Source of the DNA: Yuukianura sp. NJ FZ-2021
Lineage: Eukaryota
NCBI GenBank assembly: GCA_046563655.1
Contig: CM102287.1
Span: 1,116,001-1,180,000 of the forward strand
Direction of reading: 5' to 3'
DNA length: 64,000 nt
Shown: one piece after another, positions 1 through 38,863 of the stretch
Position numbering within the stretch: the stretch's first letter is position 1
How the letters are laid out: every line of letters begins with the position of its first letter
The notes under the pieces: model-generated
Database searches by the model: none
What the model saw: the letters and a program-made list of their open reading frames with translations, nothing else
What the model was told of the DNA's origin: nothing
Translations under genes and position numbers: made by a program

Positions 1-1729
1 AAATGATCAATGCCGTGTTAGTTGATGGTGGGATAATGTGCATCAACTTAGGCACCATCATGTTCTTCAGCTGGCTGATTTCGGTCAAATTGAGTCGAGG
101 TGCGTCAAGGTCCCAGGATTCGTTGAAAACAGATTTCAAGTTAGGGAAAACAGTTTGGCTTCCGTAGTTCCGGTCGTGGGCTGGCTTGAGCATGATGTCG
201 ATTTTCGACATCATTGCTGGTATGACTATGGTGACTCGTGGTGCGTCTGCCATGCCCGTGGGGCATGGGTATGGTGGTCGAATTGTCCGTCGTCCTGGAA
301 CTTGTAGTTCGCAATCGCAAGAGAGTCTGACTTCGAGGCTTCCAATCTGGTCGTTTGGTGGCTGCACTGGGTGGGTCCTGTTGTCCGAGATCCCACGTTC
401 TCCGCACTGGATCTGCATTCCTTCCGGTGCTCCGGTTAGGATGAATGTATGATAGTCCAATTGGGTCACGCTAAAATCTCCTGGTGTGTTGAGGCATTCG
501 AAAAGGCAGACTTCGTTGAGTTCCCGAACGCTGGCGCCCCGTAGAAGTCGTTGAGCGCATAAGTATCCGGTCATCGGGTCGGAACTGAACTGAGGCACAT
601 GGCAGAGTCCAGTTTCGGGGTGGCATTGTTGAAGTTGTGTGCCTTGGATCGTCACGAGTTCTTCTTCGTTTACGGCTAAGTATGCTGGAGCGTGTTGAAC
701 AATGCAGGTGCTACCTTTGTAGCTAAACGGCACGTTTATCATCTCGTACAACTTCCAATTATCCGCGAGTTTCTTGATAGGTATGCGGACACGGTACATG
801 ATCCGTCCTCCGTCACTAAAGGCGCAGTCGGTGAGCTTCAGTTTGTAATACCGTGTGACTTCCTCGATGGGTATGACTAGTCCATATCCGTCAGCTCGTA
901 GTTTCTGGCTTGCTTTGCGGAGGTCTGCTGCTAACCTGGTCGGCGGGACTGCCAAAATGGAGATGGTTTGAGCTCGGCAGTGGTCCTGGAGATCCTTGAA
1001 GCGCATCAGCTCTCCGATTTGGTTGAGGTAGTCGAAGACTTGGAGAAAGGTTCGTCTAGTGGAATCTCCCTCGGCGGTAAGCAGGGTCATTGTCCTTTGC
1101 ACACTTGCGTTGCTGTCCTGCATGGCGGCCTGTTGTTGGTAGAGTCGGTTGACGTGCTCGTGCGCGGTTTGGAAGAGTCGGGTGACGTTTTTCCCAAAAA
1201 GTTCCATTGAGGTTTTCAAGTTCATCACGTTCTGGTTGTTTATGACAACTGAGCCCTTAATGGCTTCCATGAACTTCTCAATGCTCTCACCGTTGACCTG
1301 GAGGTCCTGCATGTCTCGTTTGGAGACGAATCCACAGCAGAAACTGAACATGTCGCTGACTAGGGTGAGAGGGTTAAACGATTGCCATGTGAGGTCCCGT
1401 TTCGTACGTCTTGGGCTGACTTCTGTCATCATCATGTCATCTTTAATGGATGCCAGCATCTTAGTGAGGTAGGTTGTGTAGGGTCGAATGTTCATTGGGA
1501 AGGTGCAGCCTTCGGTTTGAGCGTCGCGGCAGGTTCCTTCCATGACGTTTCCGATCGGGTTGGTAAAGTTGACTTGAATGTCATAGACGAGGGGAATTGT
1601 AGCGGTGTACAATTCCGTTCCTTTGACCTCCCGAACGAGAGATCCTGTGGTGACTCTAACTTCGGTGGGTTGTATGGAGAAAGCATGTCCTCCACCAAGG
1701 ATGGTTATCAGCATAACCAGCCACTGCAT
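1..1729 (-). CDS. env: Envelope / class I fusion glycoprotein (Env, F-protein-like), 3'-truncated by the window edge
   Basis: Absent from the ORF track because it has no stop in the window. Manual translation from ATG 1729 stays open for 576 codons to position 2. It shows a signal peptide (MQWLVMLITILGGGHA), a furin site RRTKR|DLTW (RTKR 1397-1408), a hydrophobic fusion-peptide-like segment (FNPLTLVSDMFSFCCGFV), a heptad-like helical region, a Cys-rich ectodomain and NxS/T sequons. Confidence 0.88.
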   Translation of the reverse strand, partial: MQWLVMLITILGGGHAFSIQPTEVRVTTGSLVREVKGTELYTATIPLVYDIQVNFTNPIGNVMEGTCRDAQTEGCTFPMNIRPYTTYLTKMLASIKDDMMMTEVSPRRTKRDLTWQSFNPLTLVSDMFSFCCGFVSKRDMQDLQVNGESIEKFMEAIKGSVVINNQNVMNLKTSMELFGKNVTRLFQTAHEHVNRLYQQQAAMQDSNASVQRTMTLLTAEGDSTRRTFLQVFDYLNQIGELMRFKDLQDHCRAQTISILAVPPTRLAADLRKASQKLRADGYGLVIPIEEVTRYYKLKLTDCAFSDGGRIMYRVRIPIKKLADNWKLYEMINVPFSYKGSTCIVQHAPAYLAVNEEELVTIQGTQLQQCHPETGLCHVPQFSSDPMTGYLCAQRLLRGASVRELNEVCLFECLNTPGDFSVTQLDYHTFILTGAPEGMQIQCGERGISDNRTHPVQPPNDQIGSLEVRLSCDCELQVPGRRTIRPPYPCPTGMADAPRVTIVIPAMMSKIDIMLKPAHDRNYGSQTVFPNLKSVFNESWDLDAPRLNLTEISQLKNMMVPKLMHIIPPSTNTALII

Positions 1730-1730
1730 T

Positions 1731-1760
1731 CTGAATATAGAAGATTATGGGTTAATGCTT
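1731..1760 (-). promoter_or_regulatory. Putative 3' splice acceptor for a subgenomic env mRNA
   Basis: The minus strand reads GCATTAAC (branch-like) CCATAATCTTCTATATTCAG|A ATG, between the pol stop (1763) and the env ATG (1729). Confidence 0.65.
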
Positions 1761-1762
1761 AA

Positions 1763-4700
1763 CTAACAATATCGTGCAGGTTTGCGGATTTCTCGCCCCG
1801 CGCGTGTGACATAGGGCGCTTGCGATCTTTTGGTCCTATCAATGTCGACCTTGTCGACCTTTATGTCGACCGCTTCCTCTTCCGAGGACTCACTGCTACT
1901 ATCACTACTACTGTCCACGCTAGTCGAGGTAGCGGAGCTACTGTCGTTCTTTTCGTCGTCAGAGGTCAGAGGCGGCGATGACGTAGGTAGTGTAAAGTTT
2001 TGAAGTACTGGAGGCGAAGCATTGCCTTCCCCAACTTGGTTTGCTGCTACTCCTGGAGCAGCTTCAGTGGTCGCAAATTCTAGCAGTGACTCGGAGTACG
2101 GCTTGAGATGATCAATGTGGGCCCGAACATGAGGCGCATCGGGATCGGCGCGTGGCACGCACCAGTACGAGAGTGGAGAGTGTTTCTTGGTTATGACGTA
2201 AGGTCCACGATATCGCATTGCAAGTTTGCGGGAAGTACCGGGTGCCGGTTTGTGAACCTTGATGAGTACAACGTCCCCTTCATTGTATTCAAAATCCTGT
2301 CGACCGACGTTAAAGAGTTTGCATTGTCGTTGTTGGCTCTGTTTGAGTCCTTGACGTGCCGCGTCTCGTGCTTCCTGCATTCGCCGAATGCGCGTCGGAA
2401 TGTCGGTGGATAGTCGGACTGTGTCATACACGATGTCAAGAGGGTGATATGGATGACGACCGTAAAGGATATAGTAACTGCTATAACCGGTAGAGTCCTT
2501 GTGCACTGCGGTGTTGAGTGCAAAGACGGCGGATCCAAGATATTTGTCCCAATTGCGCTGGTTCAACGAAACGTAGTTGGTGAGGATTTCTTCAATGCTA
2601 CGGTTGTTCCGTTCCACCAGTCCATTAGTCCTGCTGTGGTATGGAGATGAATAAACGTTAGTCGTCCCGATCAGGGAGTTGAACTGCTTGAAGAATGAGG
2701 CGGTGAATGTGGAGGCGTTATCCGTCAGGATCGTTTTGAAGACGCCGTGGATTTGGATGATTTCCATAAGGAAATCTAGCATCGCCTTAGTGGTATTGTG
2801 GCGTATGGCCTTCGCGTAAACGTATCGTGAGAGGAACTCGACGAGGACGACAATGTACTTATTCCTGGACTTTGTAGAGGGCAGGGGCCCGATGACATCA
2901 ACGCTGACTCGGTCGAAGAGGTCACCTACGGGGATGGGTGACAAGAGTCCAGCGGGGTGTGTGTTCCGGACTCGGCGCTTCTGACAGATGGCACAATTCC
3001 GTACGTATTCAGTTATAAGCGTGTCGAGCTTGAACGCAAATATGCTGTTCCGTGCCCTGGCAAGGGTTCTGGCAACGCCTAGATGACCCATGAGTGCGTC
3101 GTCGTGAAAACGGGGTAGAATGGAGTGCATCATATGCTTCGGAATTACTGGAAGGTTGGTCTTTGTTAGTTTGCATTTGTATTGTAGGAGGCCGTCGTCT
3201 ACAGTGAAGCGTTTGTGGAGCTTGCTCCTAGCGTTTGCGGTGAGAGTAGCCACGATTTTCTGAAGCTTCTCGTCGTTTTGTTGTTGTTGTATGAGCTCGG
3301 TACGCGAATCCATCGGAGTAACAAATTGCATTGCGTACCAGTGTACTGGGAATTCATCAGTAAATGTAGCAGCATGATCCTCCACAGGGAAACGGGAGAG
3401 GCAGTCTGCTTGGACGTGGCTTTTCCCATTGACGTGCTTTACGGTATAGTCAACATCTTGAAGTCGTAGGGCCCATCGCGCTAAGCGCGAGTTGCGTAGA
3501 TTCCGGCATGTTTTGAGGTAGCAGAGGGCGTGATGATCGACAACAATCGTGAAGGCTTTGAAGCCAATATACTCTCGAAATTTCTCAATTCCCCACAGGA
3601 CTGCTAGGCATTCTTGTTCGCTGGTGTTATAGCGCTCTTCCGCGCCACGGTAGGTGCGGCTGGCGTAAGCCACCACGCGTAAAGTGTCTCCCTCTCGTTG
3701 TTGGAGAATGGCAGCAATGCCTTTGTTTGACGCGTCTGTGTGTAGCTCGAGTTCGGCGTTCTCATTAAAGAATGCGAGGATTGGTGCGGAAACCAAGCAT
3801 TGGCGAAGAGAATCGAAAGCTCCCTGTTCCTGGTCGCCCCACTGAAAAGCTACGGTACTTTTGGTGAGCTCAGTCAGTGGTTTTGCAATTTGGCTGTAGT
3901 TCTTGATGAAACGGCGGTAGTATCCAGTACAGCCAAGAAATGTTCGTACTTCGTGAATGTTGGTTGGAGGTCGCATCTCAGTGATGGCCTTAACTTTGTC
4001 AGGGTTAACGGCAACTCCATCCCCCGTAATTATGTGACCAAGAAGGGCTAATTTCGTCTGCCCGAAATAACATTTTGGAGGTTGAAGGGTAAGGTTGTAA
4101 GCACGAAACTGTCGGAAGACATTTTCCAAGTTCGCCAAGTGTGACTGAAAATCCTTGGCGAAGACGCAGACGTCGTCAAGGTATGCGGTACAAATGGAGT
4201 GGATCCTTGTCCCAAGAACTGTCTTCATAAATGCGCTGAAAGCCGCTGGGGCGCAAGTGAGGCCAAATCCCATGTAGAGGTGTTCATAAGCACCTGCGTG
4301 AGTTACGAAGCTGGTCTTCTCGACGTCGTCCGGATGAATCGGGATTTGGAAGTAACCAGACATCAAATCCAGGCAGGAGAAGTACTTGGCGCCGTCAGGG
4401 AGGCCAACAGTTCTGAAATTACTGGCATAGGCCAGCTGATGGTTTTGGTAACAAAGTTGAGCTTCCGCCAGTCAATAACCATACGGTATTTGTCGCTGTT
4501 CGGCTTCTTAACTAAGGAAACTCCAGCGGCCCAAGGGGATCGGCTTTCGCGAATAATTCCCGCTTGTAGGAGCTTGTCGACTTCGTCTTCAATTATTTTC
4601 TTCTCCGCAGGGCTCTTCTTGTAGGGAGGGCAGCTTACAGGGAGAGCGTCACCAGTGTCGATGCGGAAAGTGACATCTTTTGCTTTCCCAAGCTGGTCCA

Positions 4701-5727
4701 AATTCCAAGCGAAGATGTCGCCGTACTCTAAGATAAGAGCGCGTAACTGCGCTTGCTCGTCGGGGCTTAAGTCCGGATTGATTTGGAGCTGAGCAATGTT
4801 TTCGCGTGTGGACTCCTGGCGTTGCCGACGGATCTCCTCTTCAGGTTCCGTTTCACGGACTAGAACGCGGTAGATATTTCCAACGTTTACTCCTCGAAAC
4901 AGCTTGACGGCAACTGGGCGCGGGTTGTCGATGGGGATCTCGAAGTCACCTTCGGCGACATGGGCGAGTCCTGGAGCGCAGAGTCCCAGCTTGTCGAGAG
5001 CTTGGCTGTTGGGTTCGAAGGCGAGTATCCCTCGAAGTTGATCGACCGGAAATACTTTGATCAGTGTCGTCGAGAAGGGCGGCAGCATGGTCTCCTCGAC
5101 GGTAAGTACCTTCGGCATCGATGGCGGGTGTACTTTAGTGGCGTGAACGTGCTCACGCTGCATAGTGTTCAGGCTTAGTCCAAGTGCTGCAGGGGTACGC
5201 AGATTAAATCCTCGTGGAACCGTCATTCCGAGGAATTGGAAGGTTCCGTGTTCCTGTGATTTTGAATACTTTAGTTGCAGTTCGTGTTCCAATGTGAAGT
5301 CGTTTCCGAGGATGACGTCATAGGAAATGTCCGCTAGGACGTAGAACTTGTGAGTTAGCATTGTAGTTGACTTCCGGGAGAAGGTAACTTGTCGGTAGAC
5401 GTAGCCAAGTACTGTGACCTTTGTCCCGTTTGGAAGGTCAAGAGCTGATGAGGCATCGATAGGCTGGAGCTCGTCCGGAGTGACATTGTTCTGCCGAATT
5501 ATACTGACGGGGCATCCCGTGTCGAGTAGACACGAACGTCTCTTAAGTACTGTGCCTTGTAGGATGAATATACTAATTATGAGGTTTCCAACTGGGTCCG
5601 TACTACTACGGTCTCCTGGGAAGGCTGTCTTGCGTGTCATCACGGCTAGAATTGGTCGTGTAGGATTAGAGGGTTTTGTGAGTGAGTGGGCTTCAGACCT
5701 CTCTACTGTCGCCTCGGTGCGTTTCCC
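1763..5727 (-). CDS. pol: Pol polyprotein (protease, dUTPase-like linker, RT, RNase H, integrase) with one internal frameshift near 4397
   Basis: Motifs: LLDTGC (protease), SPWAAGVSLVKK..YRMVIDWRKLN and YLDD (RT), HTDAS..E..DH (RNase H), HDDALMGH..CAIC (HHCC), VSVD..TDN..ERNNR (DDE), RYRGPY (GPY/F). ORFs 4363-5643 and 1763-4366 join as LASL-DGAKYFSCLDLMSGY if 1 nt is restored at ~4397. Confidence 0.95.
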
Positions 5728-7208
5728 TGGAGATTAGCGGGTCGCCCGGCCGATGGTGCTGGTGCGGTAGCACGAGTTGAATTGTCCTTGTCGCAAGGGG
5801 AAGCGGGTCTCCTGGCGTGATACTCATCGCCTACCACAGGACATTGGTATCCAAGGTGTGTCCCGTCACAATGTTCGCAGTGGGCCCGGTTTCGGTTCCA
5901 GTTTGTGTCTCGTTGTTTCCACCGCTTTGGGCAGTTGGCTATGCGGTGGTCATCGCGACCGCACTCGTAGCATCCTGCATACGACCTTTGGCCTTGCCAT
6001 GGTCGCCATGGGCGTCCATTGCCACGCTGTCCGGAGTTGTACCGGTTTCCTCCCTGGGATTGTTGTGGTTGGTCGCGATTATAGCCGTGGCCTGCTTTGC
6101 CCCATGCCGGGCGTCGTTTTACTATGCGTCGCTCTCCAGCTTGTGGTTCCGTTGGTGCTTCCAAATTCATATTGTTGAAGCGCGCAGTCAATCGGGGTAG
6201 ATCGGTTCCTGCCCGTTTCCGCTTCATCATGAAGTCGTAGTTCTCCTTTTCGATAAGAAACTGCGTCACATCTTGCGGCGTCTTCGGTTGCCGCAGGAAT
6301 ATCTCGTGACTGACATCTGCGGGCAACCCCTTGAGTAGGAAGTTGACCCGCTTTTCGTCCTTCATGGTGGTCCCTTGGCTTTTGTCCAACTGGTCACATA
6401 GTCGCAGCACCTTGCCGCAGTAGTCTTCCACGCTCTCTTTCGGATTTCTCTTCCGTTGAGCCAAGCGGTATTCCAGTTCTTCTTCAGTCAGCCGTGACTT
6501 GAAGCTCGTATGGAATCCCTCCTTCAGAGTCTTCCATGGAAGAGCGGCAACGTCGCCGTTGGCGTCTCGATTGGCTGGGTCACGCTCCCAGTCGGTGCGA
6601 AAATTCAAGAACCATGTCTTCGCATAGCCCTTGAGGTAAAGCGGAAGATGGCGTACTTTTGCAGCCTCGTCCCATCGTTGGTTAACAGCAATCGCCTTAA
6701 ACGTTTCCCAGAAATTCCTGGCTGGGTAGCCTCGTTTTCCCTCAAACGTTGAATCACCCGGTGGTGTCCAAACAGAAACCACGACGCTCGGTGCGGGAGT
6801 CGTCAGCATGACAGGCTGCTGAGGTCCCGGAGTAGGTGGGGTGCCTGCGCCTCCTGGCGTTCCAGATGCTGGTGGCTGTCCACCACCGGTTAGGTCCACG
6901 ACTGGGACTATCGAGTTCGGCCCACCAGCTCCTGCTGGCGGCGTCGGTGGAGTAATCGTTGTGGGCACCGGAAAAGTGAACGCATTCCCGGCCCCTCCGG
7001 CGGGTCCTGCTGTCCCGCCCGTTTGGCCCGTTGCAGGGCTAATGACAGGGTCGTTAGGGCTTGTCGTCGCGCCGGCTCCTGCCGTGGGCGTCTTCGGCCG
7101 TTGCCGATCCCGTTCTTTTGCTTCCTTCAGTACTGCGGCTAGGTCCGCAGGTTCGTACATTGGTGGAGTTCCGTCCTGTCGGGTGTGTCGACGAGCTGGG
7201 TCCGACAT
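5703..7208 (-). CDS. gag: Gag polyprotein
   Basis: Pro-rich N-terminus, retrotransposon-gag-like capsid region (LPLYLKGYAKTWF..KESVEDY..FLLKGL), and knuckles CYECGRDDHRIANC (CX2CX4HX4C) and CEHCDGTHLGYQC. Confidence 0.93.
   Translation of the reverse strand: MSDPARRHTRQDGTPPMYEPADLAAVLKEAKERDRQRPKTPTAGAGATTSPNDPVISPATGQTGGTAGPAGGAGNAFTFPVPTTITPPTPPAGAGGPNSIVPVVDLTGGGQPPASGTPGGAGTPPTPGPQQPVMLTTPAPSVVVSVWTPPGDSTFEGKRGYPARNFWETFKAIAVNQRWDEAAKVRHLPLYLKGYAKTWFLNFRTDWERDPANRDANGDVAALPWKTLKEGFHTSFKSRLTEEELEYRLAQRKRNPKESVEDYCGKVLRLCDQLDKSQGTTMKDEKRVNFLLKGLPADVSHEIFLRQPKTPQDVTQFLIEKENYDFMMKRKRAGTDLPRLTARFNNMNLEAPTEPQAGERRIVKRRPAWGKAGHGYNRDQPQQSQGGNRYNSGQRGNGRPWRPWQGQRSYAGCYECGRDDHRIANCPKRWKQRDTNWNRNRAHCEHCDGTHLGYQCPVVGDEYHARRPASPCDKDNSTRATAPAPSAGRPANLQGNAPRRQ
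5721..5727 (-). promoter_or_regulatory. -1 programmed ribosomal frameshift slippery heptamer G GGA AAC at the gag-pol junction
   Basis: X XXY YYZ pattern in the gag frame, 5 codons before the gag TAG. The -1 frame is open from here into the protease ORF. Confidence 0.8.
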
Positions 7209-8688
7209 GGCTTGCTTCTTCTTCTTCTTCTTCTTCTGAAAGGATCAGATGATTAGTTGTATTTGGTCCCCTAGGGCGCGGGGTGATGTAGGGTTGAGGG
7301 TTGGACAACTTCCTCCCTCGGCATTTGCAGAAAAATGAAATAGCTATTGCCCCCATGCCGGCTAGTAACCCAACTATAAACCCGCGCATGAAGGTGTCGG
7401 GGTTGAATATGTCGGACATAAGGTGGGCAGTTTGACAGTCTACCCCCAGTTGAAGATATACGTATAGGGACTTGTCCATGAGTAGCTTGTTTTCCCGGGT
7501 TATCAGCTGGACCCGGCCCTTCTCGTAAGTGTAAACGCCTCGTTCCGTGTCCCGAATACCAACAAGGCGTAGATCTTGTAGGTGAGGGTAGGGCATGTAG
7601 ATGTCTGGCTCGTCCCATAATGTTTGTATCATGCCCTTCTCTAAGTATAACGGCCTCCATCCCGTGGTTAGTTTGATCCAGAGGGTGTGTTCCGATGGGA
7701 AGTACCCCAAAACTGGGTATGTAATGCCGAAGATACTTCGGTGCTTGAGTCCTGGTGTGATTAGGTGGCCGTCGGATGAATATACTCCGATTCGGTCATC
7801 GACCATAACGTAGAGGTAACTCGCGACGCCGACTGTGAAGTTGATTCGGCCGTCCGGCGGGAAGTCCTCGAAAAAGTCTTCATTCTTCACTGGAGTAGGG
7901 AGGAGTGTTCCAGCTCCAGTAACTCTAACATGACTCTTCCCGTGGAACAGGAGATGGTCCCCATTAAGGTAACCGATATGATCGTACCACAGGGTACTCA
8001 GGCCTCGGATGTTTTCTCCATCCGGCCCTTCATCGAAGAACCCCGGTGGGTATAAGACCTTCAGAGCTTCTTCGTCGGGGACTCCTATTTCCGTAACGTG
8101 CGGCCAGAACTGGTACCATGCTGTCATCACAGATCCTATGGCACGAGTGTGTGGCAAGGCCAAGGCGTGGCCTATTTCATGTAGGAGTACCGAAAATAGA
8201 TTGACGTGTTCGTCGTCTTCTCCGAGAGACCAAGTCTCGTTGGCGTCTAGGTGGATTTGTCCACCCATTACTGATCCAGGGTAGTGTGCGTGGCCTAATG
8301 TGCCACCGCGTCCGTCACTAGCGTCATCATGAATTTCGTGTTCAAATGTGATGGGGATATCAGCATTCCCTTCCACATACGTAAAGGTGAAGTTGGAGTA
8401 ACGTTGCCACTTCACGAATGCCAGGCTGGCGTCAGCCAGGGCTTCTTCTCGGTCCATGTCATATGGGGTAGGTCCAAGGGTCCACGTGAGGTTCCTCTTG
8501 GTCCACCGGTGTGGGTTCACCGGACTTCGTCGGGTTCGGGTCGCCAGTGTCCATGGGCACATCATTGTCCCGGCGACATCTGCAACAAGCGTCGTCCCGA
8601 CGCAAAGTACAAGGAGCGTCCGTAGAGTCATACCGTCCAGATATCCTGTAACAGGGTTGAACCGCCAAGGTTCGGTAATTTGTTTCAT
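7054..8688 (-). CDS. Membrane-type matrix metalloproteinase (matrixin/M10A-like), intronless, carried by the retroelement
   Basis: Signal-like TLLVLCVGTTLVADVAG; furin site RTRR (8527-8538); RWTKRNLTW; ADIPITF; DGRGGTLGHAHYP; IHLDANETW; zinc motif HEIGHALALPH (8149-8181); Met-turn SVM; hemopexin-length linker; TM segment FIVGLLAGMGAIAISFF followed by CKCRGRK. Confidence 0.9.
   Translation of the reverse strand: MKQITEPWRFNPVTGYLDGMTLRTLLVLCVGTTLVADVAGTMMCPWTLATRTRRSPVNPHRWTKRNLTWTLGPTPYDMDREEALADASLAFVKWQRYSNFTFTYVEGNADIPITFEHEIHDDASDGRGGTLGHAHYPGSVMGGQIHLDANETWSLGEDDEHVNLFSVLLHEIGHALALPHTRAIGSVMTAWYQFWPHVTEIGVPDEEALKVLYPPGFFDEGPDGENIRGLSTLWYDHIGYLNGDHLLFHGKSHVRVTGAGTLLPTPVKNEDFFEDFPPDGRINFTVGVASYLYVMVDDRIGVYSSDGHLITPGLKHRSIFGITYPVLGYFPSEHTLWIKLTTGWRPLYLEKGMIQTLWDEPDIYMPYPHLQDLRLVGIRDTERGVYTYEKGRVQLITRENKLLMDKSLYVYLQLGVDCQTAHLMSDIFNPDTFMRGFIVGLLAGMGAIAISFFCKCRGRKLSNPQPYITPRPRGPNTTNHLILSEEEEEEEASHVGPSSSTHPTGRNSTNVRTCGPSRSTEGSKRTGSATAEDAHGRSRRDDKP
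7215..7256 (-). promoter_or_regulatory. Putative splice acceptor plus GAA-repeat exonic enhancer just upstream of the gag ATG
   Basis: The minus strand reads ACTAAT (branch) CATCTGATCCTTTCAG|AAGAAGAAGAAGAAGAAGAAGCAAGCC ATG(gag). The AG is at 7237-7236. Confidence 0.6.
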
Positions 8689-9424
8689 TGCTTCATTTGT
8701 AGTCTCGTTGTGTTTTCGCTCCTCGGGGTATGCGACAAGTGTTGAAGAAAAACCTCTGTCCTACGTCATCGCCTCTCTTGAGTGGTCGCGACTCCACCCT
8801 CAAAGCGACTTCGATTACTTGCTAAATGGGCAGCTGTAGGGTCTGGGACCACAATATGCTACAGCCCGGTCAATAGTTACACCGTTGCCGAGGTGACGGC
8901 CCACCGTCCCTCAACCCGTTCCTTCACGGAATATTTCTAGACGTTCGGTTTCATCTACGCCAAGCGCGGAGAGCAGTAAATCTTCTAAACAAGTCGTTAA
9001 TACAACAGCCAGCTACCCAACTGACTGTGGAAGAAAGTAGCGTCGGAAGAGAAGTGACGGAAGGGGTTCCCTACCCCCCTCTCAATTGTGAGAACAATAC
9101 CGCCAACCGTGTATGAGTCAAAGCTGATGGCTACCATAGTAACCTCTGACCCTTGGCTAGAGCCACAGCCCTATACGATGACCTTTGACCTGAGGCAGAG
9201 CGTGTGTGACAACAATAGAGGACTTTCACCTCAGCGAGGGTCACCTTCTCTATTGTGTCTGTTCGATGCCTGTGAGTACTTGGTCACCAGGGGGGGATAG
9301 CACTGGTCGTAGTCACTTACGTAGTAGGTAGCTTCGTAGAAATCAGCTTGACCTGTTCGTTGGTTGCCCCAGGGTGGTTGCCCTAGGAGTCCCTTAGTAC
9401 TTAAATCTAACTTATTTAATGTTT

Positions 9425-9545
9425 GTACGTTATTGTCTTCACATTACGTTATTGTCCTCAAATTATTTACTTCGTTATTGTTCTTAAATTATTTAGTACG
9501 TTATTGTTCTTAAATTATTTAGTACGTTATTGTTCTTACGTTAAT
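9425..9545. repeat. ~26-bp tandem repeat in the retroelement 5'UTR (about 5 degenerate copies)
   Basis: AGTACGTTATTGTTCTTAAATTATTT starts at 9495 and recurs (partial) at 9521, with degenerate copies upstream. Confidence 0.85.
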
Positions 9546-9705
9546 GTTCGCGCACACATTCATTCGTTACGTTAAATTACGTTAATAGCTGCGTTAACAG
9601 TTGCGGTATTGAATCAAGAATAGTTTTACTTGAATATACAGCGCAAGAAAGAAGAGAAAACAGCCACAGAGGTGGGTACCTCTGTATGGTTTTAAAGAAA
9701 TTGCC

Positions 9706-9723
9706 ATCTCGGCAAATGCACCA
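9706..9723 (-). promoter_or_regulatory. Primer binding site, most similar to the 3' end of tRNA-Gly(GCC)
   Basis: Minus-strand TGGTGCATTTGCCGAGAT begins 2 nt after the LTR terminal CA. It resembles the tRNA-Gly complement TGGTGCATYGGCCGGGAA with a few mismatches. Confidence 0.7.
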
Positions 9724-9725
9724 AT

Positions 9726-10372
9726 TGTTACGTCTCAGATTGGCGTAATGCCATTGGAAGGGCCCTCGGGGTTAGTACTCGCTTAGCCCAAGGGGTCAAG
9801 GGTCTTAAGGACCCCTTCCTGGCGTGAGTTCGTCCAATGTTTTGTCCATGTTTGTGTAAGGTGAAATAAAATGATCAAGTATGAATATATTTGCCCATAC
9901 CTCTCTGCTGTGACTGTGCTTTTATTTTCTTCCGGGTAGTAGTAGGTTAGTGGGTACTTAGTAGTGCTTTTTCTCCTTCCTTCTCTAGTCTTCTGTGCTT
10001 TCTCGCTTACTTCCAAGCTATTACTGAATAGTATTTATATTAGTGTTTTAATTGCCCAATTAAGGTTGCTAGGTGGGTGCTAATTAGTGCTACTTAGGAG
10101 CTAATTAACAACTTTTGTTTTATGCACTAGCGTACGGCTGTGGTCGTGCTTCCTGCCACTTGGCCCTGTGATCGCTTGGCCTTGTGGTTTCTTTCCACTC
10201 CGACTGAGACTGGATTTGGTGCTAAGTGGGCTTAGTTACTAGGTGTGCTTAGTAACTAACTAACTAACGTTACACGTGCGACCTTGTGCAGTAGTGCCTA
10301 GCAACTGACTTGTGAAAGTGAAAGTTCAAGTGCAGGTGCTGAAGGTATTGTTGTGCAAGTGCAGGTGTAACA
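9726..10372 (-). repeat. 5' LTR (647 bp)
   Basis: Bounded by the inverted termini TGTTAC...GTAACA and adjacent to the PBS. Minus-strand TATAAA at 10034-10039 and AATAAA at 9921-9926. The partner LTR is outside the window. Confidence 0.85.
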
Positions 10373-10373
10373 C

Positions 10374-10997
10374 AAGATTATTCAAAACCTCGACATGATG
10401 GTGTCACCTAGAATCGATGACGTAATTGTATTCTATAAGGTATATCAAAGCGGCTATGACGTCATGAAGTCAATGGACCATAGAGTTAGATGCATGGAGG
10501 GATTAAAATTGGACGAAGTCTACGCTAATAATACATTGCTAGTCATCGATGACCAAATGGCAGATTCATTAAAAGACAAATCTGTCCAAGAACTCTTCAC
10601 TTGCGGTGTTCATCATAGGTAAGGCAAAAATCACTTTGCAAATGCACTACCGCGATAAATTTGCATAGAATTGACAAAACGTTTTTGAATTCCAGGTCAA
10701 TATCCGTCATCTTCCTTTCTCAAAATTTGCTGCCGCAAGGAAAATATGCCAGGGATATTCGTCTCAACACACATTACATGACGATTTGCAAGACCCTCAT
10801 TTCCATCACAAGTGATGTACCTCAGTAGACAACTCAATCCAAGGAAGCCGAGTGCAATTTTAAACGCTTACGAGGAGGCAACTCGCCAGCCGTATTCATA
10901 CTTGTTCTTAAATTTACACCCTAGTTGCCACGATAATTTACGAATACAGTCAGGAATTCTTCCAAAGGAAGAACATATTATTTACTTACCAAGTTAA
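10374..10997 (+). pseudogene. Packaging ATPase (FtsK-HerA/A32-like), 3' part; interrupted by the LTR element, with one intron (10619-10695) and a frameshift at ~10795
   Basis: KIIQNLDMM..FYKVYQ follows where Walker A should be. Walker B is LLVIDD. The spliced sequence reads HHR-SISVIFLSQNL..GKYARDIRLNTHY, then SQVMYLSRQL..AYEEATRQPYSYLFLNLHP in a shifted frame. Confidence 0.88.
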
Positions 10998-11011
10998 GTG
11001 TTTCTTTTACA

Positions 11012-11359
11012 ATGACAAACCGTTTAGTTCGAAACAAAACGTTCCTCGAAGAAGTTAAAAAGTGTAAAGCTCCACGCCGAAAAAAGTTAATAAAAAAGGC
11101 TTCAAAAGACAATATTGAAGCATTGTCCGAAATTGCTCTAAACACGTTAATAGGTAATGTGCCATTAACTAAACAACACAAACATAAACTCAAACGGCAC
11201 GGGAGTTGTATCAGGAATCTTGCAAAGAAGTTCTCTATTAAAAAGAAGAAGGAATTCTTAATACAAAAAGGTGGGTTTCTTCCACTGTTGGTGACACCAG
11301 CTCTGTCGATACTTGGCGGTCTTGCAGCAAACGCATTAACTCACCTTGTGGGTTTATAA
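11012..11359 (+). CDS. Small Lys/Arg-rich Polinton virion core-like protein with QKGG|F putative protease site and C-terminal amphipathic helix (cupiennin-like gene of adintoviruses)
   Basis: Basic 115 aa protein containing EIALNTLIGNVPL and ending LIQKGGFLPLLVTPALSILGGLAANALTHLVGL, directly downstream of the ATPase. Confidence 0.7.
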   Translation: MTNRLVRNKTFLEEVKKCKAPRRKKLIKKASKDNIEALSEIALNTLIGNVPLTKQHKHKLKRHGSCIRNLAKKFSIKKKKEFLIQKGGFLPLLVTPALSILGGLAANALTHLVGL

Positions 11360-12222
11360 TGTCCAAAAAAATGAAATTGATACCGCATCTGGAGTACGAA
11401 AAACTTATTGCCATTCAACGAGCTCCTCAGCTTTTACATAAGTCTGCATCAGTTCAACTATTCCAAAGGAAGCAAGCAGCAGCAACAAACATTCTAAAAT
11501 GGAATTCTATTTCCGATGACATCAAATTAGCCTTATTCAATAGTATGGCAAAGGGACTGCACGCAAACTTTTCGGCTCTAATACACACTCCACTTCAAGT
11601 TGAAGTTTCTAAACCGGGAAAGCTTGTTCCGTCACCCAAAAGTACAAAGACCAACCACGAAGAGAATATAAAACGCGATGCAGGAACGACCGTAGACCAG
11701 GCTTAGTACAACACTCACCTAGCTAAGTTCCTTCCAAAAAAGTACCAGCTACCTGGCATGAAAATAATGCACGTTCTTTCTACGTCTGCATTTAATGACA
11801 TTTCCTGGGATGAGTCCGGCCAAGTTTCGTATAAGGGTGTACCAAGGAATGGTGCAAATATTATTGAACTCTTGGCATACGTCCTAAAGCCTCCAGCGAA
11901 GGTCATTCCACCAAAGGGAATTCGTACATTTATTTACATTTTAAAGAAAGTGCATTTACCAAAGGAGTTGCTTGGAATTCATATTCGGAACAAGTTAAAT
12001 CTGAGTACGGTAGCACTACTTGCCCAAAATACTCCAGCCACTAACGAATCGCTAGAAGAGGGCGAGGAGGAGGAGGAGGAAGAGGAGGAGGAACACGACG
12101 ACGAAGAGGAGGAGGGAGACGGAATGGACGATTACGAAGCGGATGCTCCCACTAGCGGTAATACATCTGATGAGCAATATCAAACGCCAGTTGCCACAGC
12201 CTCTGCCTGGAGCATCTTCTAA
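11359..12222 (+). pseudogene. Polinton protein of unknown function with acidic tail; in-frame TAG at 11704-11706
   Basis: ORFs 11359-11706 and 11758-12222 are in the same frame with 17 open codons between them. The motif ISWDESGQVSYKG..GANIIELL is recalled from Polinton unknown ORFs. The start overlaps the previous stop (TAATG). Confidence 0.65.
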
Positions 12223-12253
12223 TTAGTCAGTTCTTGGAGTTAATAGTACGAAC

Positions 12254-12939
12254 ATGTCAGAACTAGTTGCAAAAGTAGACGTAATCAACATGCCTCTAGT
12301 AGTATTAACGAACAACGGTCCGGATTTCGAACAGTACGCAACCACTGAAAGTAGGCTAGCCAGCTTCGATTCCTCTACTAAGGATTGCTTCCCTCCTGCT
12401 GCAACACTAGCAAACGCAGGATTCTTCTTCACAGAGTTTGAGGATGCTGTAATTTGTTTCTACTGTGGGTTGTGTCTGACGTCTTGGAGTCAACACGATT
12501 CACCATGGTTGGAACACCGAATTCATTCTCCAAACTGTGCATATCTCATTCTAAAGCACCCAGTCACAAACGTAAGCTACAAAATGTTTGGAAGAAAAAT
12601 TATGACAGTAAATATATATTTATGATAAATTTTGAAAAATGTAGGTTTCGTCAACAACGGATCTTTGTGAGATGGATTCCGGAAAGTGTATAGAGACAGG
12701 TAAAGGAATCATTAAAGTGCAAGTTTGAACTTATGTGTGAACTCATAATTATTTTTTCTTATATAGAATTGAACAATTTGAAGTCTATTATAAGGTGGAA
12801 GATTTGCATGATTCGCCAAGTCTCCTATATGTACGCTCCTTGCTGTCATTTGGCAACATGTCTGGAATGCTGTACCACCCAATCAATATGCCCCATATGT
12901 CGTTCCGAAATAACGCTGATAATTAAAGTCTTCGTTTAA
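12254..12939 (+). CDS. iap: Inhibitor of apoptosis (one BIR + RING), 3 exons; introns 12572-12644 and 12700-12766
   Basis: BIR: RLASF..LANAGFF..DAVICFYC..W..DSPWLEH..HSPNC. RING: (W)KICM..PCCHLATCLECC..CPICR. The GT-AG introns splice in frame. AATAAA at 12958-12963. The first RING Cys is replaced by Trp. Confidence 0.88.
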
Positions 12940-12972
12940 AATACGTCACATATAAGTAATAAAGCATTAGAC

Positions 12973-15900
12973 TTAGTTTTTATTAATCCTGTAATGCCCG
13001 TACGGTAAGGTTGTAATGCCGTCGTTTAAAATGTAGCGTTTGGAATCAAATGCATGTAGTGCAGCTTTAGTTGTTCTGATATTGTAAATTTTATGCTTGT
13101 ACGACCGCATTGATTTCAGAGTGCACGCTAGTATTTTTTGGTCTAATAAAACTTTCTCCAGCATTTCAAATGATATTGACTTTTGCTGAACTCTTTGCGG
13201 AATTCCCTTCATGGCAGTTTTTTTAAAGAAGCCGCATGGTAATCTTCACCTACAAAGCAGTAGGACTTGGGGGCGAGTCCCACAAACTTGGTCAGTATTC
13301 GTCCCTTCACGTCGTCTTTCATTTTTCCAGTGACTCCAGCATTCGCCATTGAATAAAGCGGGTGTGATTTTGGCAAGTTGCTGGTGTCAAATAGTTCTAA
13401 GTCTTCTTCGAGGTCTTTGTATAGGTCTGTGGTGCAAATTGAGTATGCCAAGCTGTCAGTATCAGTCATGAGCAGCGTCGCATTTTGGCCCCATTTGGTC
13501 TTGACGTAATCATAGTGGAAACGTGCCATATGTAATTTGCTTAACTCTAAAACGCAGAATCCTGTGTAAATTGCTTTGTTAAGGGTGACGCAGGACTTCT
13601 GCATTCTAAAGCAGGCCAGATTGTCACCCAAAATATCATGCGACAAAAATTGGGATTTTGACAACAATCTGGAAGCGGTTTGACGGTTGTTCACTACTCT
13701 GATGTTCATGCGCTTCCTGACAGATTCCATTCCTTTTCCAAATACAGCATTGACACATAACTTGTAGAACATCCTATCAAATTCATTTTTGGCATTGCGC
13801 CTTTGGGAGCTGTTGAACTCAACGTATGTTTTAAGCCATGGTTTTTGCCGGAATGCCAAAATTCTGTGAATCTTCTGAATCAAAAGTCCACGATTCACGT
13901 AGAATTGTAAGTTTGCCACATGACAGATGTAATTCTTTCGGTGCTGGAAATGGCACACAAGCTTTTCTTGCAATTCCATGTAATTGATTGGAAGACAGTC
14001 TAGCAACTTTCTTTGGAAGCTGCTAAAATTCTCTGAAGACACAGTTGTCTTTTCACAAGCTAGTGGATAGCATTGGTGTGAGTCGTGAAGTTTTTCTGTA
14101 TAGTTCAAAAGGTTAAGAAAATCATGAAAAATTAACAAAAGTTGACAGTAATAGTTCATGAAAGTACAATACCAGGATAATGAAGATCTGCTTCTATAAT
14201 GTACCCAATGTCGTCGTCCAAGTGAAAGTCATCAATATTGAATTCTGCCACCAATGCTAAAATTAAAGCAGATGAGTATATTAAAATGTAAAATTACTCA
14301 ACATTTCACTTGCTTAACGCTACCTTGATTTAAAAAAATAAAATTGTCAACTGGAAGCCTGCTCTCCATTGCCTTTCCGTACAGGTTAACCATGTCCCAC
14401 AAAGCAATATACATCTGGTTTGCATCTCCAGGCTCTCCACTATAGTCCTTCATGTATTTGTTGTGTGCCTCTGCATAACGATGTGAGATTTGGAAAATTC
14501 CTCCTGAACAATGGTTTAGGAGTTAGTCAGTGTTAAATTAAACATTATTAGAGGAAATAGTCAAATACCTCTCATTCCTTTCTCCAGAAAAATATACATG
14601 TCAATGTCAGTTATGAGTTCCAGCGTTACGTTTGACATTTTTAAAGCAGCATCCCACGCCAGCCCAGGTAGCGAAAAGTAGTGAGCCGGGTCAAGTCCAA
14701 AATTCTTCAATGCCATTTTTCGAAACTCTTCAAACACGCAAGCGAGTAACAACGCATCGGTTAGTAGGTAAAGATCATGGTATTCCCCTAAGGAATTAAG
14801 ACCGAACGTCTTGAAAATATGCAGAGCGTATTCATAGTCCGCATCGGTAATGTGGCAACTAGTAAGTGTGTTGTAGAACTTTGGCTTCGCAGGTAAATTT
14901 TCCTCATCAAAACGTTGCCAAGAATCGATGTAGTCGTAAGGGTATACACCTTTTCTTGTAAGCAGTTCATATTTATTTCCAAACACCTGCTTCATGATCG
15001 CAAATACATCTTCTCCTTGCTCCTTCAAATTGCTGACGAGTTCACTTAATGAGGAATTGAGAAATTGAAGGCTTTCTATAAACCGCAAGGAGTCAACTGC
15101 CACCGACATGTATTTCTCCGTGTTAGTTGGAATTACGGATATTTTCCTAGCACTTATGTCATTCAGTCCTTTGATGATCAAGTGATGATCATATCCTTGA
15201 AAGTTGTGGATCTGCGTGAATATAAAAAATTTAATGAAACAATTACAACGCATATTGCAAACGTATGTTGTTCTAACCACAACAGGTAAAATTTCCTTTT
15301 GTTGGAAATTCAAATTACATCTCTGGTGAGCGGCCCCTCGAAATGTACCTAATAGTAATTCGTTTAAGTTTTCAATAAGATAACAAGCTTTACCTTTGAA
15401 TTTATCAGCGTTTTTATTTTGTTACCCGTTAAATGACAATGATCTCTGCACTTGTCTCCCCAAAATTCAAATGCTCCACCACAAATGTGACAACTCTCAG
15501 CATTCTGAAATATCTCCTCCTCTCCATGTTTCATTTTAATGGGTACTTTCAGTTTGTATATCTCCATAACACTGCTCGCAATTTTTAAACAATCTTCAAG
15601 AAAAATCTTGATGCTGTCCTTTCCTCTGTAAACACGGTAGGAGATCAACTCGCCGGTATTTTTGATTAAGGCATATGAGAATCCGGAGGGGATATGACGT
15701 TTCTCTTTGGTGATGGACGACTCATTTGAAGAATCTTGAATGGGTTTCAATATTGATTCCAAATCAGCGTACATAACATAGCCTGCTTTCATTTTGTTTG
15801 AATAGTTTTCGAAACACATCACTGGTGGACTACCATTTTCGACTTTCGGCATCTTCACCTTTTGAAAAACAAACTTTTCACACTCAGCTTTATGCCTGAG

Positions 15901-38763: not shown

Positions 38764-38863
38764 NNNNNNNNNNNNNNNNNNNNNNNNNNNNNNNNNNNNN
38801 NNNNNNNNNNNNNNNNNNNNNNNNNNNNNNNNNNNNNNNNNNNNNNNNNNNNNNNNNNNNNNN
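38764..38863. other. Assembly gap (100 N)
   Basis: Run of exactly 100 N, a placeholder of unknown true size. Confidence 0.99.

What the first reader, a model, noticed from the sequence alone, without database searches (positions are those of the whole stretch)
7054..8688. Env-bearing Gypsy retroelement carrying its own membrane-anchored matrix metalloproteinase upstream of gag
Seen: an intact, intronless 544-codon ORF inside the element (between PBS and gag, same strand, overlapping gag by 155 nt) with signal peptide, matrixin catalytic motifs, all three Zn-binding His plus the catalytic Glu, Met-turn, TM helix and tail. Known: errantiviruses normally carry only gag-pol-env. Viral MMPs are known from large insect DNA viruses such as betabaculoviruses and entomopoxviruses, where they are linked to basal-lamina breakdown. 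I do not know of an MMP as a fourth gene of an LTR retroelement. Inference: a captured protease that helps enveloped particles cross extracellular matrix (e.g. soma to germline), making an MMP+Env invasion module.
Basis: partly seen in the sequence, partly recalled or inferred. Interest (0 to 1): 0.95.

Follow-up and report, generated by a model that had tools for sequence, protein, structure and literature searches.

The report
Retroelement carrying its own matrix metalloproteinase
A retrovirus-like jumping gene in an animal genome carries, in front of its capsid gene, a complete membrane-anchored tissue-dissolving protease that its copies have kept under selection, an accessory gene I found described for no element of this kind.

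Summary
Window 7054-8688 (- strand) is an open 544-codon ORF. It scores as a matrixin (Pfam Peptidase_M10, E 5.7e-36) and has the HEIGHALALPH zinc site, Met-turn, signal peptide, RTRR furin site, TM helix and tail. It lies inside an errantivirus-like Ty3/Gypsy element: 5' LTR 10372-9726, PBS, 1-kb leader, MMP, gag (155-nt overlap), pol behind a G GGA AAC slip site, then a Baculo_F-type env.

It is not a one-off. Public-run contigs show many diverged copies. One copy about 7% diverged bridges gag and MMP, and contigs from a second coded organism carry MMP plus leader. Of 14 listed substitutions in the ORF, 12 are synonymous (P about 8e-5), as in env (11 of 11).

No close relative turned up in 1.84 billion protein representatives. 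The nearest are cellular membrane-anchored MMPs at 29-45% identity. Insect DNA-virus MMPs are more distant (11-28%).

Eight literature searches, and the text and supplements of the 2026 survey of metazoan errantiviruses, gave no MMP-bearing LTR element.

Caveats: this copy's pol has a frame break in RT; env and the 3' LTR run off the window; the hemopexin-like domain is only weakly supported; the matrix-breaching function is inferred. Verdict: real, a new variant of a known kind, high interest.

The parts
9726..10372 (-). 5' LTR, 647 bp, TGTTAC...GTAACA termini; TATAAATA at 10039-10032 and AATAAA at 9926-9921
   Evidence: Sequence read. Contigs of the flanking repeat stop matching exactly at 10373 in X1, X2 and X4 (table 7). 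No second copy in the window; the 3' LTR lies outside the window.
9707..9723 (-). Primer-binding site TGGTGCATTTGCCGAGA, 2 nt after the LTR end
   Evidence: Its likeness to the 3' end of tRNA-Gly(GCC) is recalled, not tested; the window holds no tRNA gene.
8689..9706 (-). Long leader (1037 nt from LTR end to the MMP ATG) with 8 upstream ATGs and a 26-bp tandem repeat (9445-9538, 3.6 copies)
   Evidence: Length varies between copies here (joints 9478>9547 and 9456>9556).
7054..8688 (-). MMP gene, 544 codons plus stop
8569..8631 (-). Signal peptide (aa 20-40, starting at the second Met)
   Evidence: Hydropathy windows 20-45 score 1.5-1.9.
8527..8568 (-). Mini-propeptide TMMCPWTLATRTRR with Cys44 and furin-type site RTRR (aa 51-54); no PG_binding_1 prodomain and no PRCGxPD
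   Evidence: Cys44 aligns opposite the Cys of RRFCGVD in P0036.
8050..8508 (-). Matrixin catalytic domain (aa 61-213), with HEIGHALALPH at 8181-8149 and Met-turn M188 at 8127-8125
   Evidence: Pfam E 5.7e-36. AF2 pLDDT about 90-97 for most 10-residue blocks of this domain. Foldseek TM 0.81-0.87 to MMP-1, -8, -12 and -13 catalytic domains at rmsd 2.4-2.9 A.
7399..8001 (-). Diverged hemopexin-like domain (aa about 230-430), tentative
   Evidence: phmmer and BLASTP alignments run into hemopexin blades 1-2 of MMP-1 (1fbl) and P0036. AF2 gives four groups of beta strands but is confident only for the first. Foldseek best hits are MMP hemopexin domains at TM about 0.5. Pfam finds nothing.
7321..7383 (-). 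Transmembrane helix (aa 436-456)
   Evidence: Hydropathy 1.75-2.16.
7057..7320 (-). Cytoplasmic tail (88 aa) with SEEEEEEE acidic cluster; its last 155 nt including the stop overlap gag
5703..7208 (-). gag (501 aa), +1 frame relative to MMP
   Evidence: Retrotrans_gag E 2.4e-9 and Ty3_capsid E 3.3e-6; frames.
5721..5727 (-). G GGA AAC slippery heptamer, in phase for -1 frameshifting, inside the 28-nt gag/pol overlap
4366..5733 (-). pol part 1: protease (DTG motif) and the start of RT; ends at a frame break
   Evidence: No Pfam hit.
1766..4471 (-). pol part 2: rest of RT, RNase H and integrase, in another frame. The reading frame changes by one base inside RT at about 4400-4420.
   Evidence: RVT_1 matches profile positions 77-205 only; RT_RNaseH 1.7e-31; Integrase_H2C2 1.4e-13; rve 1.1e-8. 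Frames. An X1 contig covering 4325-5712 has 0 differences.
2..1729 (-). env, F type, open to the window edge (C-terminus missing)
   Evidence: Baculo_F E 3.7e-7, 29.6 bits against 24.1. The frame runs off the window.

Best explanation
This is an accessory gene of an errantivirus-like (env-carrying Ty3/Gypsy) LTR retroelement. Gene order is LTR-PBS-leader-MMP-gag-pol-env.

Shown:
- The ORF is a complete matrixin with every catalytic and structural metal ligand.
- It lies inside the element and shares the element's base composition.
- It recurs in many diverged copies, and in contigs of a second coded organism, linked to gag and to the leader.
- It has changed almost only at synonymous sites, as env and pol have.

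Inferred:
- It was captured once from a cellular membrane-anchored MMP. The large prodomain was lost and a short Cys-containing propeptide with a furin site was kept.
- It is made as a type I membrane glycoprotein, cleaved at RTRR in the secretory pathway, and displayed catalytically active on the surface of producing cells and perhaps on budding particles beside the furin-cleaved F-type Env.
- There it cuts extracellular matrix, basal lamina or cell-surface proteins, so that enveloped particles can reach and fuse with neighbouring cells, for example from gonadal soma to germline.

How MMP and gag are both translated from one RNA is not known. The ORFs overlap by 155 nt in different frames, and the 1-kb leader holds 8 upstream ATGs. 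A subgenomic or spliced RNA, or internal initiation, is likeliest.

My odds: about 0.85 that it is a selected, element-borne MMP gene; about 0.4 that matrix or barrier breaching is its job.
For: - Identity: Pfam Peptidase_M10 E 5.7e-36. PDB best hit MMP-1, 8.4e-25. AF2 with Foldseek gives TM 0.81-0.87 to solved MMP catalytic domains. H170/E171/H174/H180/M188 and H120/D122/H133/H146 are in place.
- Position: the LTR boundary at 10372/10373 is confirmed by contigs of the flank. PBS. gag overlap, the -1 slip site and frames. env is Baculo_F type.
- Composition: GC is 0.518 for MMP, against 0.572 (gag), 0.515 (pol part 1) and 0.508 (env); neighbouring ORFs are 0.38-0.46.
- Recurrence: 435 contigs of X1 lie on the element, 80/112/132/111 in the identity classes 99+/95-99/90-95/under 90, and all 30 bins are covered. 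Five to seven contigs carry the listed variant letter at single places within the MMP. X4 record 25 spans 6544-8500 (gag start plus MMP; 145 differences). X3, a second organism and study, has record 16 over 7726-8387 (53 differences, no gaps) and record 17 over 8358-9456 (MMP start plus leader).
- Selection: all 14 table rows that fall in the ORF are transitions. Twelve are synonymous and two conservative (V>A, I>V). The expected synonymous share is 0.33, giving P = 7.9e-5. env has 11 of 11 synonymous and pol 3 of 4.
- Origin: the nearest proteins are cellular MMPs at 29-45% identity, some with C-terminal hydrophobic anchors (P0011, P0025, P0036). Viral MMPs are at 11-28%.
Against: - There are no expression data; no RNA run holds the stretch.
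- No activity data exist.
- The substitution sample is only the 40 best-supported rows of 1879, and several rows come from the same contigs.
- Contig sequences could not be read, so open frames in other copies are inferred from the absence of gaps (X3 record 16). Other contigs carry 7-18 gaps.
- This copy's pol has a frame break, and its 3' half is not in the window, so LTR pairing was not seen.
- A variant found in all four runs skips 8566-9167, which removes the start codon and signal peptide (table 5). Some copies therefore lack a complete MMP.
- In Drosophila, as I recall, follicle cells face the oocyte without an intervening basal lamina. Matrix breaching is thus not an obvious need for soma-to-germline transfer, and the host here is unknown.
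Confidence: 0.6

Rival explanations
1. The MMP is a selected element gene but not a matrix breacher. It acts as a sheddase or processing enzyme. Possible targets are host surface receptors (superinfection exclusion), immune or restriction molecules, egg-coat proteins, or the element's own Env or Gag.
For: The same evidence of selection and membrane anchoring applies. Cellular membrane-type MMPs are known sheddases as well as matrix enzymes (established knowledge, recalled). The substrate-selecting hemopexin-like domain is highly diverged.
Against: Env already has its own furin site RRTKR, and Gag is cytosolic while the catalytic domain is extracellular. Large DNA viruses of insects that carry MMPs are linked to tissue and basal-lamina breakdown (recalled; search listing only).
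Confidence: 0.22
2. It is a passenger: a host MMP retro-copy was transduced into one lineage and is carried along without benefit to the element.
For: LTR elements do pick up extra ORFs (abstracts of PMC5408684, and PMC7264820). A deletion variant lacking the ORF's start exists in all four runs.
Against: Twelve of 14 listed changes are synonymous, against 33% expected. Contigs up to about 14% diverged still cover it (X1 record 6, X4 record 26). It is present in a second organism. Its composition matches the element's. All catalytic residues are intact.
Confidence: 0.1
3. MMP and Gag are also made as one protein by a +1 shift within the 155-nt overlap. That would tether Gag to the membrane through the MMP's TM helix and carry the protease into particles.
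For: gag is in the +1 frame and that frame is open from 7244. The topology fits, with a type I protein and a cytosolic tail leading into Gag.
Against: None of six recalled +1 shift heptamers occurs in the overlap. gag has its own ATG with a purine at -3. Nothing else supports it.
Confidence: 0.05
4. It is an artefact: an assembly chimera, or a host MMP gene lying next to a solo LTR.
For: Only one copy is in the window, and its 3' end is missing.
Against: Independent contigs bridge MMP to gag and MMP to leader in two studies. The ORF overlaps gag. The MMP stretch is covered by many diverged contigs, like the rest of the element.
Confidence: 0.03

Closest known systems
Errantiviruses / env-carrying Ty3/Gypsy elements (Drosophila gypsy and ZAM; the metazoan 'ancient errantiviruses' of PMC13524379)
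   Same: LTR, PBS, gag with Retrotrans_gag domain, PR-RT-RNaseH-IN pol behind a -1 slip site, and an F-type (Baculo_F) env downstream of pol.
   Different: A fourth gene, a membrane-anchored MMP, sits upstream of and overlaps gag, behind a 1-kb leader. The survey's main text has 0 occurrences of metalloprotein, matrixin, MMP or peptidase. Its 7 supplementary files have 0 occurrences of Peptidase_M10, metalloprotein, matrixin, MMP, ORF4 or PF00413. pol is only 35-40% identical to the nearest database Gypsy pols.
MMPs of large insect DNA viruses (granuloviruses, ascoviruses, iridoviruses, entomopoxviruses, nudiviruses, hytrosaviruses)
   Same: A virus-borne matrixin that, as I recall, lacks a classical prodomain in those viruses, carried by an agent that must cross tissue barriers. 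Granuloviruses also carry an F-type fusion protein. Fold matches have E down to 1.3e-15.
   Different: The carrier is a retroelement, not a DNA virus. Identity is only 11-28% in those alignments, lower than to cellular MMPs, so independent capture is likelier. This one has a TM anchor and a furin site.
Cellular membrane-type MMPs (MMP-14/-24-like; unnamed invertebrate relatives P0011, P0025, P0036)
   Same: Signal peptide, furin site before the catalytic domain, hemopexin-like region and a C-terminal membrane anchor. The best named hits are octocoral 'MMP-24' and 'MMP-14-like'.
   Different: No PG_binding_1 prodomain and no PRCGxPD switch. Identity is 29-45%. The hemopexin domain is not detectable by Pfam. 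The gene is intronless and multi-copy, inside an LTR element and overlapping gag.
LTR retrotransposons with additional ORFs (bdelloid rotifer ORF3s: GDSL esterase, DEDDy exonuclease; plant aORFs)
   Same: Capture of a cellular enzyme gene as an extra ORF of an LTR element (abstracts seen).
   Different: Those ORFs are other enzymes, and in the rotifer elements they are a third ORF beside gag and pol. None listed is an extracellular protease, and none combines with env as here.

Membership tests
Matrixin (Pfam PF00413, MEROPS M10A) | Profile score above the curated threshold over the whole catalytic domain | tested here: met
   124.2 bits against 24; profile positions 1-158 of 159.
Matrixin (Pfam PF00413, MEROPS M10A) | HExxHxxGxxH zinc site with catalytic Glu, and a Met-turn | tested here: met
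   H170, E171, H174, H180 and M188 sit in invariant or nearly invariant columns of 50 MMPs. The Gly of the motif is Ala177 here.
Matrixin (Pfam PF00413, MEROPS M10A) | Structural zinc ligands (His-Asp-His-His; role recalled) | tested here: met
   H120, D122, H133 and H146 occupy columns at least 90% conserved.
Matrixin (Pfam PF00413, MEROPS M10A) | Catalytic-domain fold | tested here: met
   pLDDT about 90-97 for most 10-residue blocks of the domain; TM 0.81-0.87 and rmsd 2.4-2.9 A to MMP-1, -8, -12 and -13.
Matrixin (Pfam PF00413, MEROPS M10A) | Proteolytic activity | not testable with these tools
   Needs expression and zymography.
Classical animal proMMP | PG_binding_1 prodomain with PRCGxPD cysteine switch | tested here: not met
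   No PG_binding_1 hit. Only a 14-residue propeptide with one Cys (C44), aligned to the switch Cys of P0036.
Membrane-type MMP architecture | Furin site before the catalytic domain, TM anchor and cytoplasmic tail | tested here: met
   RTRR at 51-54; hydrophobic 436-456; 88-residue tail.
Membrane-type MMP architecture | Four-bladed hemopexin domain | tested here: inconclusive
   Pfam gives 0 families at E up to 10. phmmer gives 1 weak hit among 163 MMPs. The Atlas lead scores 0.84. AF2 of the domain has mean pLDDT 48.9. Five of 6 Foldseek hits at E up to 0.001 are MMP chains holding a hemopexin domain, but the model was built from an MMP alignment.
Errantivirus-like env-carrying Ty3/Gypsy element | LTRs with TG..CA ends, and a PBS | tested here: met
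   For the 5' LTR and PBS only. The 3' LTR, PPT and target-site duplication lie outside the window.
Errantivirus-like env-carrying Ty3/Gypsy element | gag, then PR-RT-RNaseH-IN in Gypsy order | tested here: met
   The DTG motif is seen in the translation. RT is interrupted by a frame break in this copy.
Errantivirus-like env-carrying Ty3/Gypsy element | env of a viral fusion-protein family downstream of pol | tested here: met
   Baculo_F at 29.6 bits against 24.1, a signal peptide and an RRTKR site. The C-terminus is cut by the window edge.
Errantivirus-like env-carrying Ty3/Gypsy element | Placement within a named errantivirus clade by pol phylogeny | not tested
   Only best hits were seen: 35-40% identity to arachnid and other Gypsy pols.

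The most novel reading that the evidence does not exclude
MMP plus F-type Env form a two-gene tissue-invasion module. If so, this element is in effect an infectious invertebrate retrovirus that dissolves its way through extracellular matrix (soma to germline, or animal to animal). That would be the first retroelement-encoded matrix protease, arrived at independently of the MMP-plus-F pairing of granuloviruses and captured from a host membrane-type MMP.
Probability: 0.35. Interest if true: 0.9.

Novelty: new variant of a known kind. Interest (0 to 1): 0.8.

Why it matters
Env-carrying Gypsy elements are now known across metazoans, but how their particles reach the germline outside Drosophila is open (passages of PMC13524379 seen). 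An element that has kept an extracellular, membrane-anchored protease under selection points to a concrete and testable step: remodelling the cell surface or matrix. It would also be a case of convergence between retroelements and large insect DNA viruses. It extends the list of accessory genes a retroelement can domesticate from nucleic-acid and lipid enzymes to an extracellular protease. A furin-activated MMP without a latency prodomain is of enzymological interest as well.

Tried and rejected
- The whole genome of the window is not held, so no genome-wide census of copies, LTR pairs or dN/dS was possible.
- No RNA holder was listed by the look-up of sequencing runs.
- MMP homologue searches: near lengths gave 5 distant hits among 7999 scored candidates; shorter lengths gave 0 of 3111 candidates. 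The 'longer' option was not run, because the length-free search of 1.84 billion representatives showed no close relative.
- Locus searches found nothing: MMP in metagenome contigs and viral contigs, pol in viral contigs, env in metagenome contigs.
- Earlier findings of this scan: nothing by place, sequence or words.
- An alignment of the isolated C-terminal domain with full-length MMPs was misplaced onto the catalytic domain and discarded (A2). It was re-done with the full-length query as anchor (A3).
- A crude splice-site scan found no strong donor in the leader (1 donor at 8 of 9 or better, inside pol). A TCCTTTCAG acceptor-like site at about 7236, 30 nt before the gag ATG, fell below my threshold. 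Splicing is therefore unsupported.
- Recalled +1 frameshift heptamers: 0 of 6 found in the overlap.
- The bacterial promoter and terminator scan of the LTR is irrelevant to a eukaryote and found 0 sites.
- Codon-frequency correlations are noisy, and my pol part 2 row there was read out of frame, so I use only overall GC from that call.
- An exact search for this gag's N-terminal motif in the supplements of PMC13524379 gave 0 hits. Cells longer than 400 characters are cut there, so this does not exclude the family from that catalogue.
Full report
**1. The observation**

The window holds an ATG-to-stop ORF of 544 codons at 7054..8688 on the minus strand, exactly as reported.
- Pfam scores it as Peptidase_M10 (matrixin) at E 5.7e-36, 124.2 bits against a curated cut-off of 24. 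Residues 61-213 cover profile positions 1-158 of 159.
- Against PDB sequences, 111 distinct chains match. The best is full-length porcine MMP-1 (1fbl, E 8.4e-25), aligned over residues 56-256.
- In a 50-sequence MMP alignment the invariant or nearly invariant columns include H170, E171, H174, H180 (HEIGHALALPH) and M188 (Met-turn), and also H120, D122, H133 and H146. The query carries the conserved residue at each of these. That the last four are the structural-zinc ligands is recalled knowledge.
- An AlphaFold model is confident for the catalytic domain (most 10-residue blocks 90-97). It superposes on solved MMP-1, -8, -12 and -13 catalytic domains with TM 0.81-0.87 at 2.4-2.9 A.
- Hydropathy shows two hydrophobic segments: 20-45, a signal peptide that begins at the second Met, and 432-456, a TM helix.
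- RTRR lies at 51-54, and an 88-residue tail with an SEEEEEEE cluster follows the TM helix.
- There is no PG_binding_1 prodomain and no PRCGxPD motif. Between the signal peptide and the furin site lie only 14 residues with one cysteine (C44). BLASTP places C44 opposite the switch-like Cys of the unnamed relative P0036.

**2. The surroundings**

Reading the minus strand from high to low coordinates:
- A 647-bp LTR with TGTTAC...GTAACA ends (10372-9726), holding TATAAATA and AATAAA.
- Two bases further, a TGG-initiated PBS (9723-9707).
- A 1037-nt leader with 8 ATGs and a 26-bp tandem repeat.
- The MMP ORF.
- gag (5703-7208; Retrotrans_gag E 2.4e-9). It starts 155 nt before the MMP stop, in the +1 frame.
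- A 28-nt gag/pol overlap that holds G GGA AAC in the phase needed for -1 slippage.
- pol, with a DTG protease motif, RT, RNase H and integrase.
- An ORF with a signal peptide, an RRTKR site and a Baculo_F match (29.6 bits against 24.1). It runs off the window start.

This is the layout of an env-carrying Ty3/Gypsy element (errantivirus-like) with one gene too many. Two qualifications apply. The pol frame changes by one base inside RT at about 4400-4420, so this copy is not intact. The C-terminus of env and the 3' LTR are outside the window, so I could not pair the LTRs or see a target-site duplication. No second copy lies in the window.

**3. One-off capture or a gene of the family?**

The genome is not held, so I used public runs. 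Four coded runs from two studies hold parts of the stretch. Their contigs, laid on window 1-10900 at 80% likeness or better, give the following:
- In X1, 435 contigs lie on the element, 80/112/132/111 in the identity classes 99+/95-99/90-95/under 90. All 30 bins are covered, the MMP bins included.
- Contigs of the flanking repeat stop matching exactly at 10373, which fixes the LTR boundary.
- X4 record 25 (1941 nt, 145 differences, 18 gaps) spans 6544-8500. This is a second copy, about 7% diverged, with the gag start and the MMP joined as in the window.
- X1 record 6 and X4 record 26 cover MMP stretches at about 14% divergence.
- In X3, labelled as another organism and another study, record 16 covers 7726-8387 with 53 differences and no gaps. 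Record 17 covers 8358-9456, which is the MMP start plus leader.

A caution from the tool: summed contig depth is not copy number, so I claim many variants, not a count.

**4. Selection**

Table 3 shows the 40 best-supported single-letter differences (1839 more are not shown).
- Fourteen of the 40 fall in the MMP ORF, all outside the gag overlap, and all are transitions.
- Twelve of the 14 are synonymous. The other two are V>A and I>V.
- The share of possible transitions in this ORF that are synonymous is 0.332, so 12 or more of 14 has P = 7.9e-5.
- The same table gives env 11 of 11 synonymous, pol 3 of 4 and gag 2 of 4.
- Seven of the 40 rows fall in non-coding DNA.
- None of the 12 indel rows shown lies in the ORF (125 more are not shown).

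The sample is small, pre-selected by support, and partly drawn from the same contigs. The direction is still clear: the MMP has evolved like env and pol, not like decaying DNA. Its overall GC (0.518) matches gag, pol part 1 and env (0.508-0.572) and not the neighbouring ORFs (0.38-0.46).

Against uniform retention, one contig form in all four runs skips 8566-9167. That removes the start codon and the signal peptide (table 5).

**5. Where the gene came from**

- A length-free HMMER search of 1.84 billion representatives gives 4036 hits at E up to 0.001 but only 4 at E up to 1e-30. Those 4 are host proteins with two or three tandem matrixin domains, whose scores add up.
- Identity among the 150 listed is 30-45%. 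No close relative of the element's MMP exists in that library.
- The word-indexed searches agree: 5 distant hits among 7999 scored candidates at near lengths, and 0 of 3111 candidates at shorter lengths.
- The named best hits are octocoral 'MMP-24' and 'MMP-14-like'. Other named hits are amphioxus, springtail, annelid and a bacterial MAG. No donor lineage can be named.
- Three unnamed relatives (P0011, P0025, P0036) share local motifs around the zinc site and end in hydrophobic anchors.
- Viral MMP models in BFVD match the fold (37 hits at E up to 0.001). The named hits among the first 25 are from granuloviruses, ascoviruses, iridoviruses, entomopoxviruses, a nudivirus and one phage. Identity among them is only 11-28%.
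- I infer capture from a cellular membrane-anchored MMP with loss of the prodomain. No tree including viral MMPs could be built.
- pol itself is only 35-40% identical to the nearest database pols, mostly arachnid Gypsy elements.

**6. The C-terminal ectodomain (about 230-430)**

The evidence for a hemopexin-like fold is weak:
- Pfam finds nothing even at E up to 10.
- phmmer against 163 MMPs gives one marginal hit, residues 236-279.
- Alignments to 1fbl and P0036 do run into their first hemopexin blades.
- An ESM-Atlas feature search points to hemopexin clusters at 0.84 and 0.83, which is only a lead.
- AF2 of the isolated domain has mean pLDDT 48.9, with four groups of strands.
- Five of its 6 Foldseek hits at E up to 0.001 are MMP chains that hold a hemopexin domain, at TM about 0.5. 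The sixth is NirN.
- The model was built from an MMP alignment, so this last result is weak.

I call the domain hemopexin-like but unproven.

**7. How it most likely works**

Shown: a complete, membrane-anchored matrixin gene is part of the element and is conserved.

Inferred:
- It enters the secretory pathway and is cut at RTRR by a furin-type convertase. Because it lacks a latency prodomain, it is active at the surface of cells that express the element, and possibly on budding particles next to the furin-cleaved F-type Env.
- There it cleaves matrix, basal lamina or surface proteins, which helps cell-to-cell transmission.
- The recalled role of MMPs in granuloviruses and other insect DNA viruses is the analogy. 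I saw only search listings for that literature.
- That errantiviruses can invade the germline from ovarian soma is stated in the abstract of PMC10541861 (listing).

Open: how gag is translated behind a 544-codon ORF that overlaps it. My splice scan found no convincing donor. The recalled +1 shift motifs are absent.

Rivals are a sheddase or processing role, a neutral passenger, an MMP-Gag fusion, and an artefact. They are weighed in their own sections.

**8. Is it known?**

Eight full-text searches returned no paper describing an MMP or matrixin in an LTR retroelement. They combined matrix metalloproteinase, matrixin, Peptidase_M10 or metalloprotease with LTR retrotransposon, errantivirus, gag/pol/env, additional ORF or accessory gene.

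The 2026 eLife survey of env-carrying Gypsy elements across metazoans (PMC13524379) was checked in two ways, by passages only.
- Its main text has 0 occurrences of metalloprotein, matrixin, MMP or peptidase.
- Its 7 supplementary files have 0 occurrences of Peptidase_M10, metalloprotein, matrixin, MMP, ORF4 or PF00413.

Known extra ORFs of LTR elements are other enzymes: GDSL esterase, DEDDy exonuclease and dUTPase in bdelloids (abstract of PMC5408684), and plant aORFs (abstract). Repbase and Dfam could not be searched, so a family entry there cannot be excluded.

**9. Verdict**

The feature is real. It is best described as a new variant of a known kind: an errantivirus-like element with a captured, selected, membrane-type MMP as a fourth gene. 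The function is a well-motivated inference that ordinary expression and zymography experiments, and a genome-wide census, can test.

Noticed in passing
window 10373-17133: The LTR element sits inside or next to a decayed Maverick/Polinton-like region. Protein-primed type-B polymerase pieces lie on the - strand (13209-14159 with a weak DNA_pol_B_2 hit, 14561-15253, 15364-17130). Small + strand ORFs include a BIR/IAP-domain ORF (12254-12625, E 1.1e-19). The flank 10373-10897 is itself a high-copy repeat in both coded organisms.
   Followed up: partly
window 20105-38682: An 18.6-kb satellite of 161-bp units (115.7 copies, 94% matches) with strong negative GC skew. It is followed by a 100-N assembly gap at 38764-38863.
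   Followed up: no
window 40801-51293: Eleven blocks of 2.7-3.7 copies of a 155-bp unit recur at spacings of 698-1241 bp (for example 41654, 42895, 43593), ending in a 388-bp repeat row at 50413-51293. This suggests a higher-order repeat array.
   Followed up: no
window 52141-63287: 45-bp and 144-bp internal repeats recur every 4.58 kb or so (52141/56723/61299 and 53835/58416/62994). This indicates a tandem array of a unit about 4.6 kb long with no ORF of 200 aa or more.
   Followed up: no
window 8566-9167: One contig form in all four runs, including the second organism, skips these 602 bases with 7 other letters in between. That removes the MMP start codon, the signal peptide and part of the leader. 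The same form also skips 9251-9704. It looks like a propagated deletion derivative (tables 5 and 5c).
   Followed up: partly
window about 4400-4420: The reading frame of pol changes by one base inside the RT domain. A contig of run X1 covers 4325-5712 without any difference, so the break is in the reads and not only in the assembly.
   Followed up: yes
window 7215-7237: The run of GAA codons that gives the acidic cluster SEEEEEEE in the MMP tail reads as a lysine run in the gag frame just upstream of the gag ATG, preceded by a TCCTTTCAG acceptor-like motif.
   Followed up: partly
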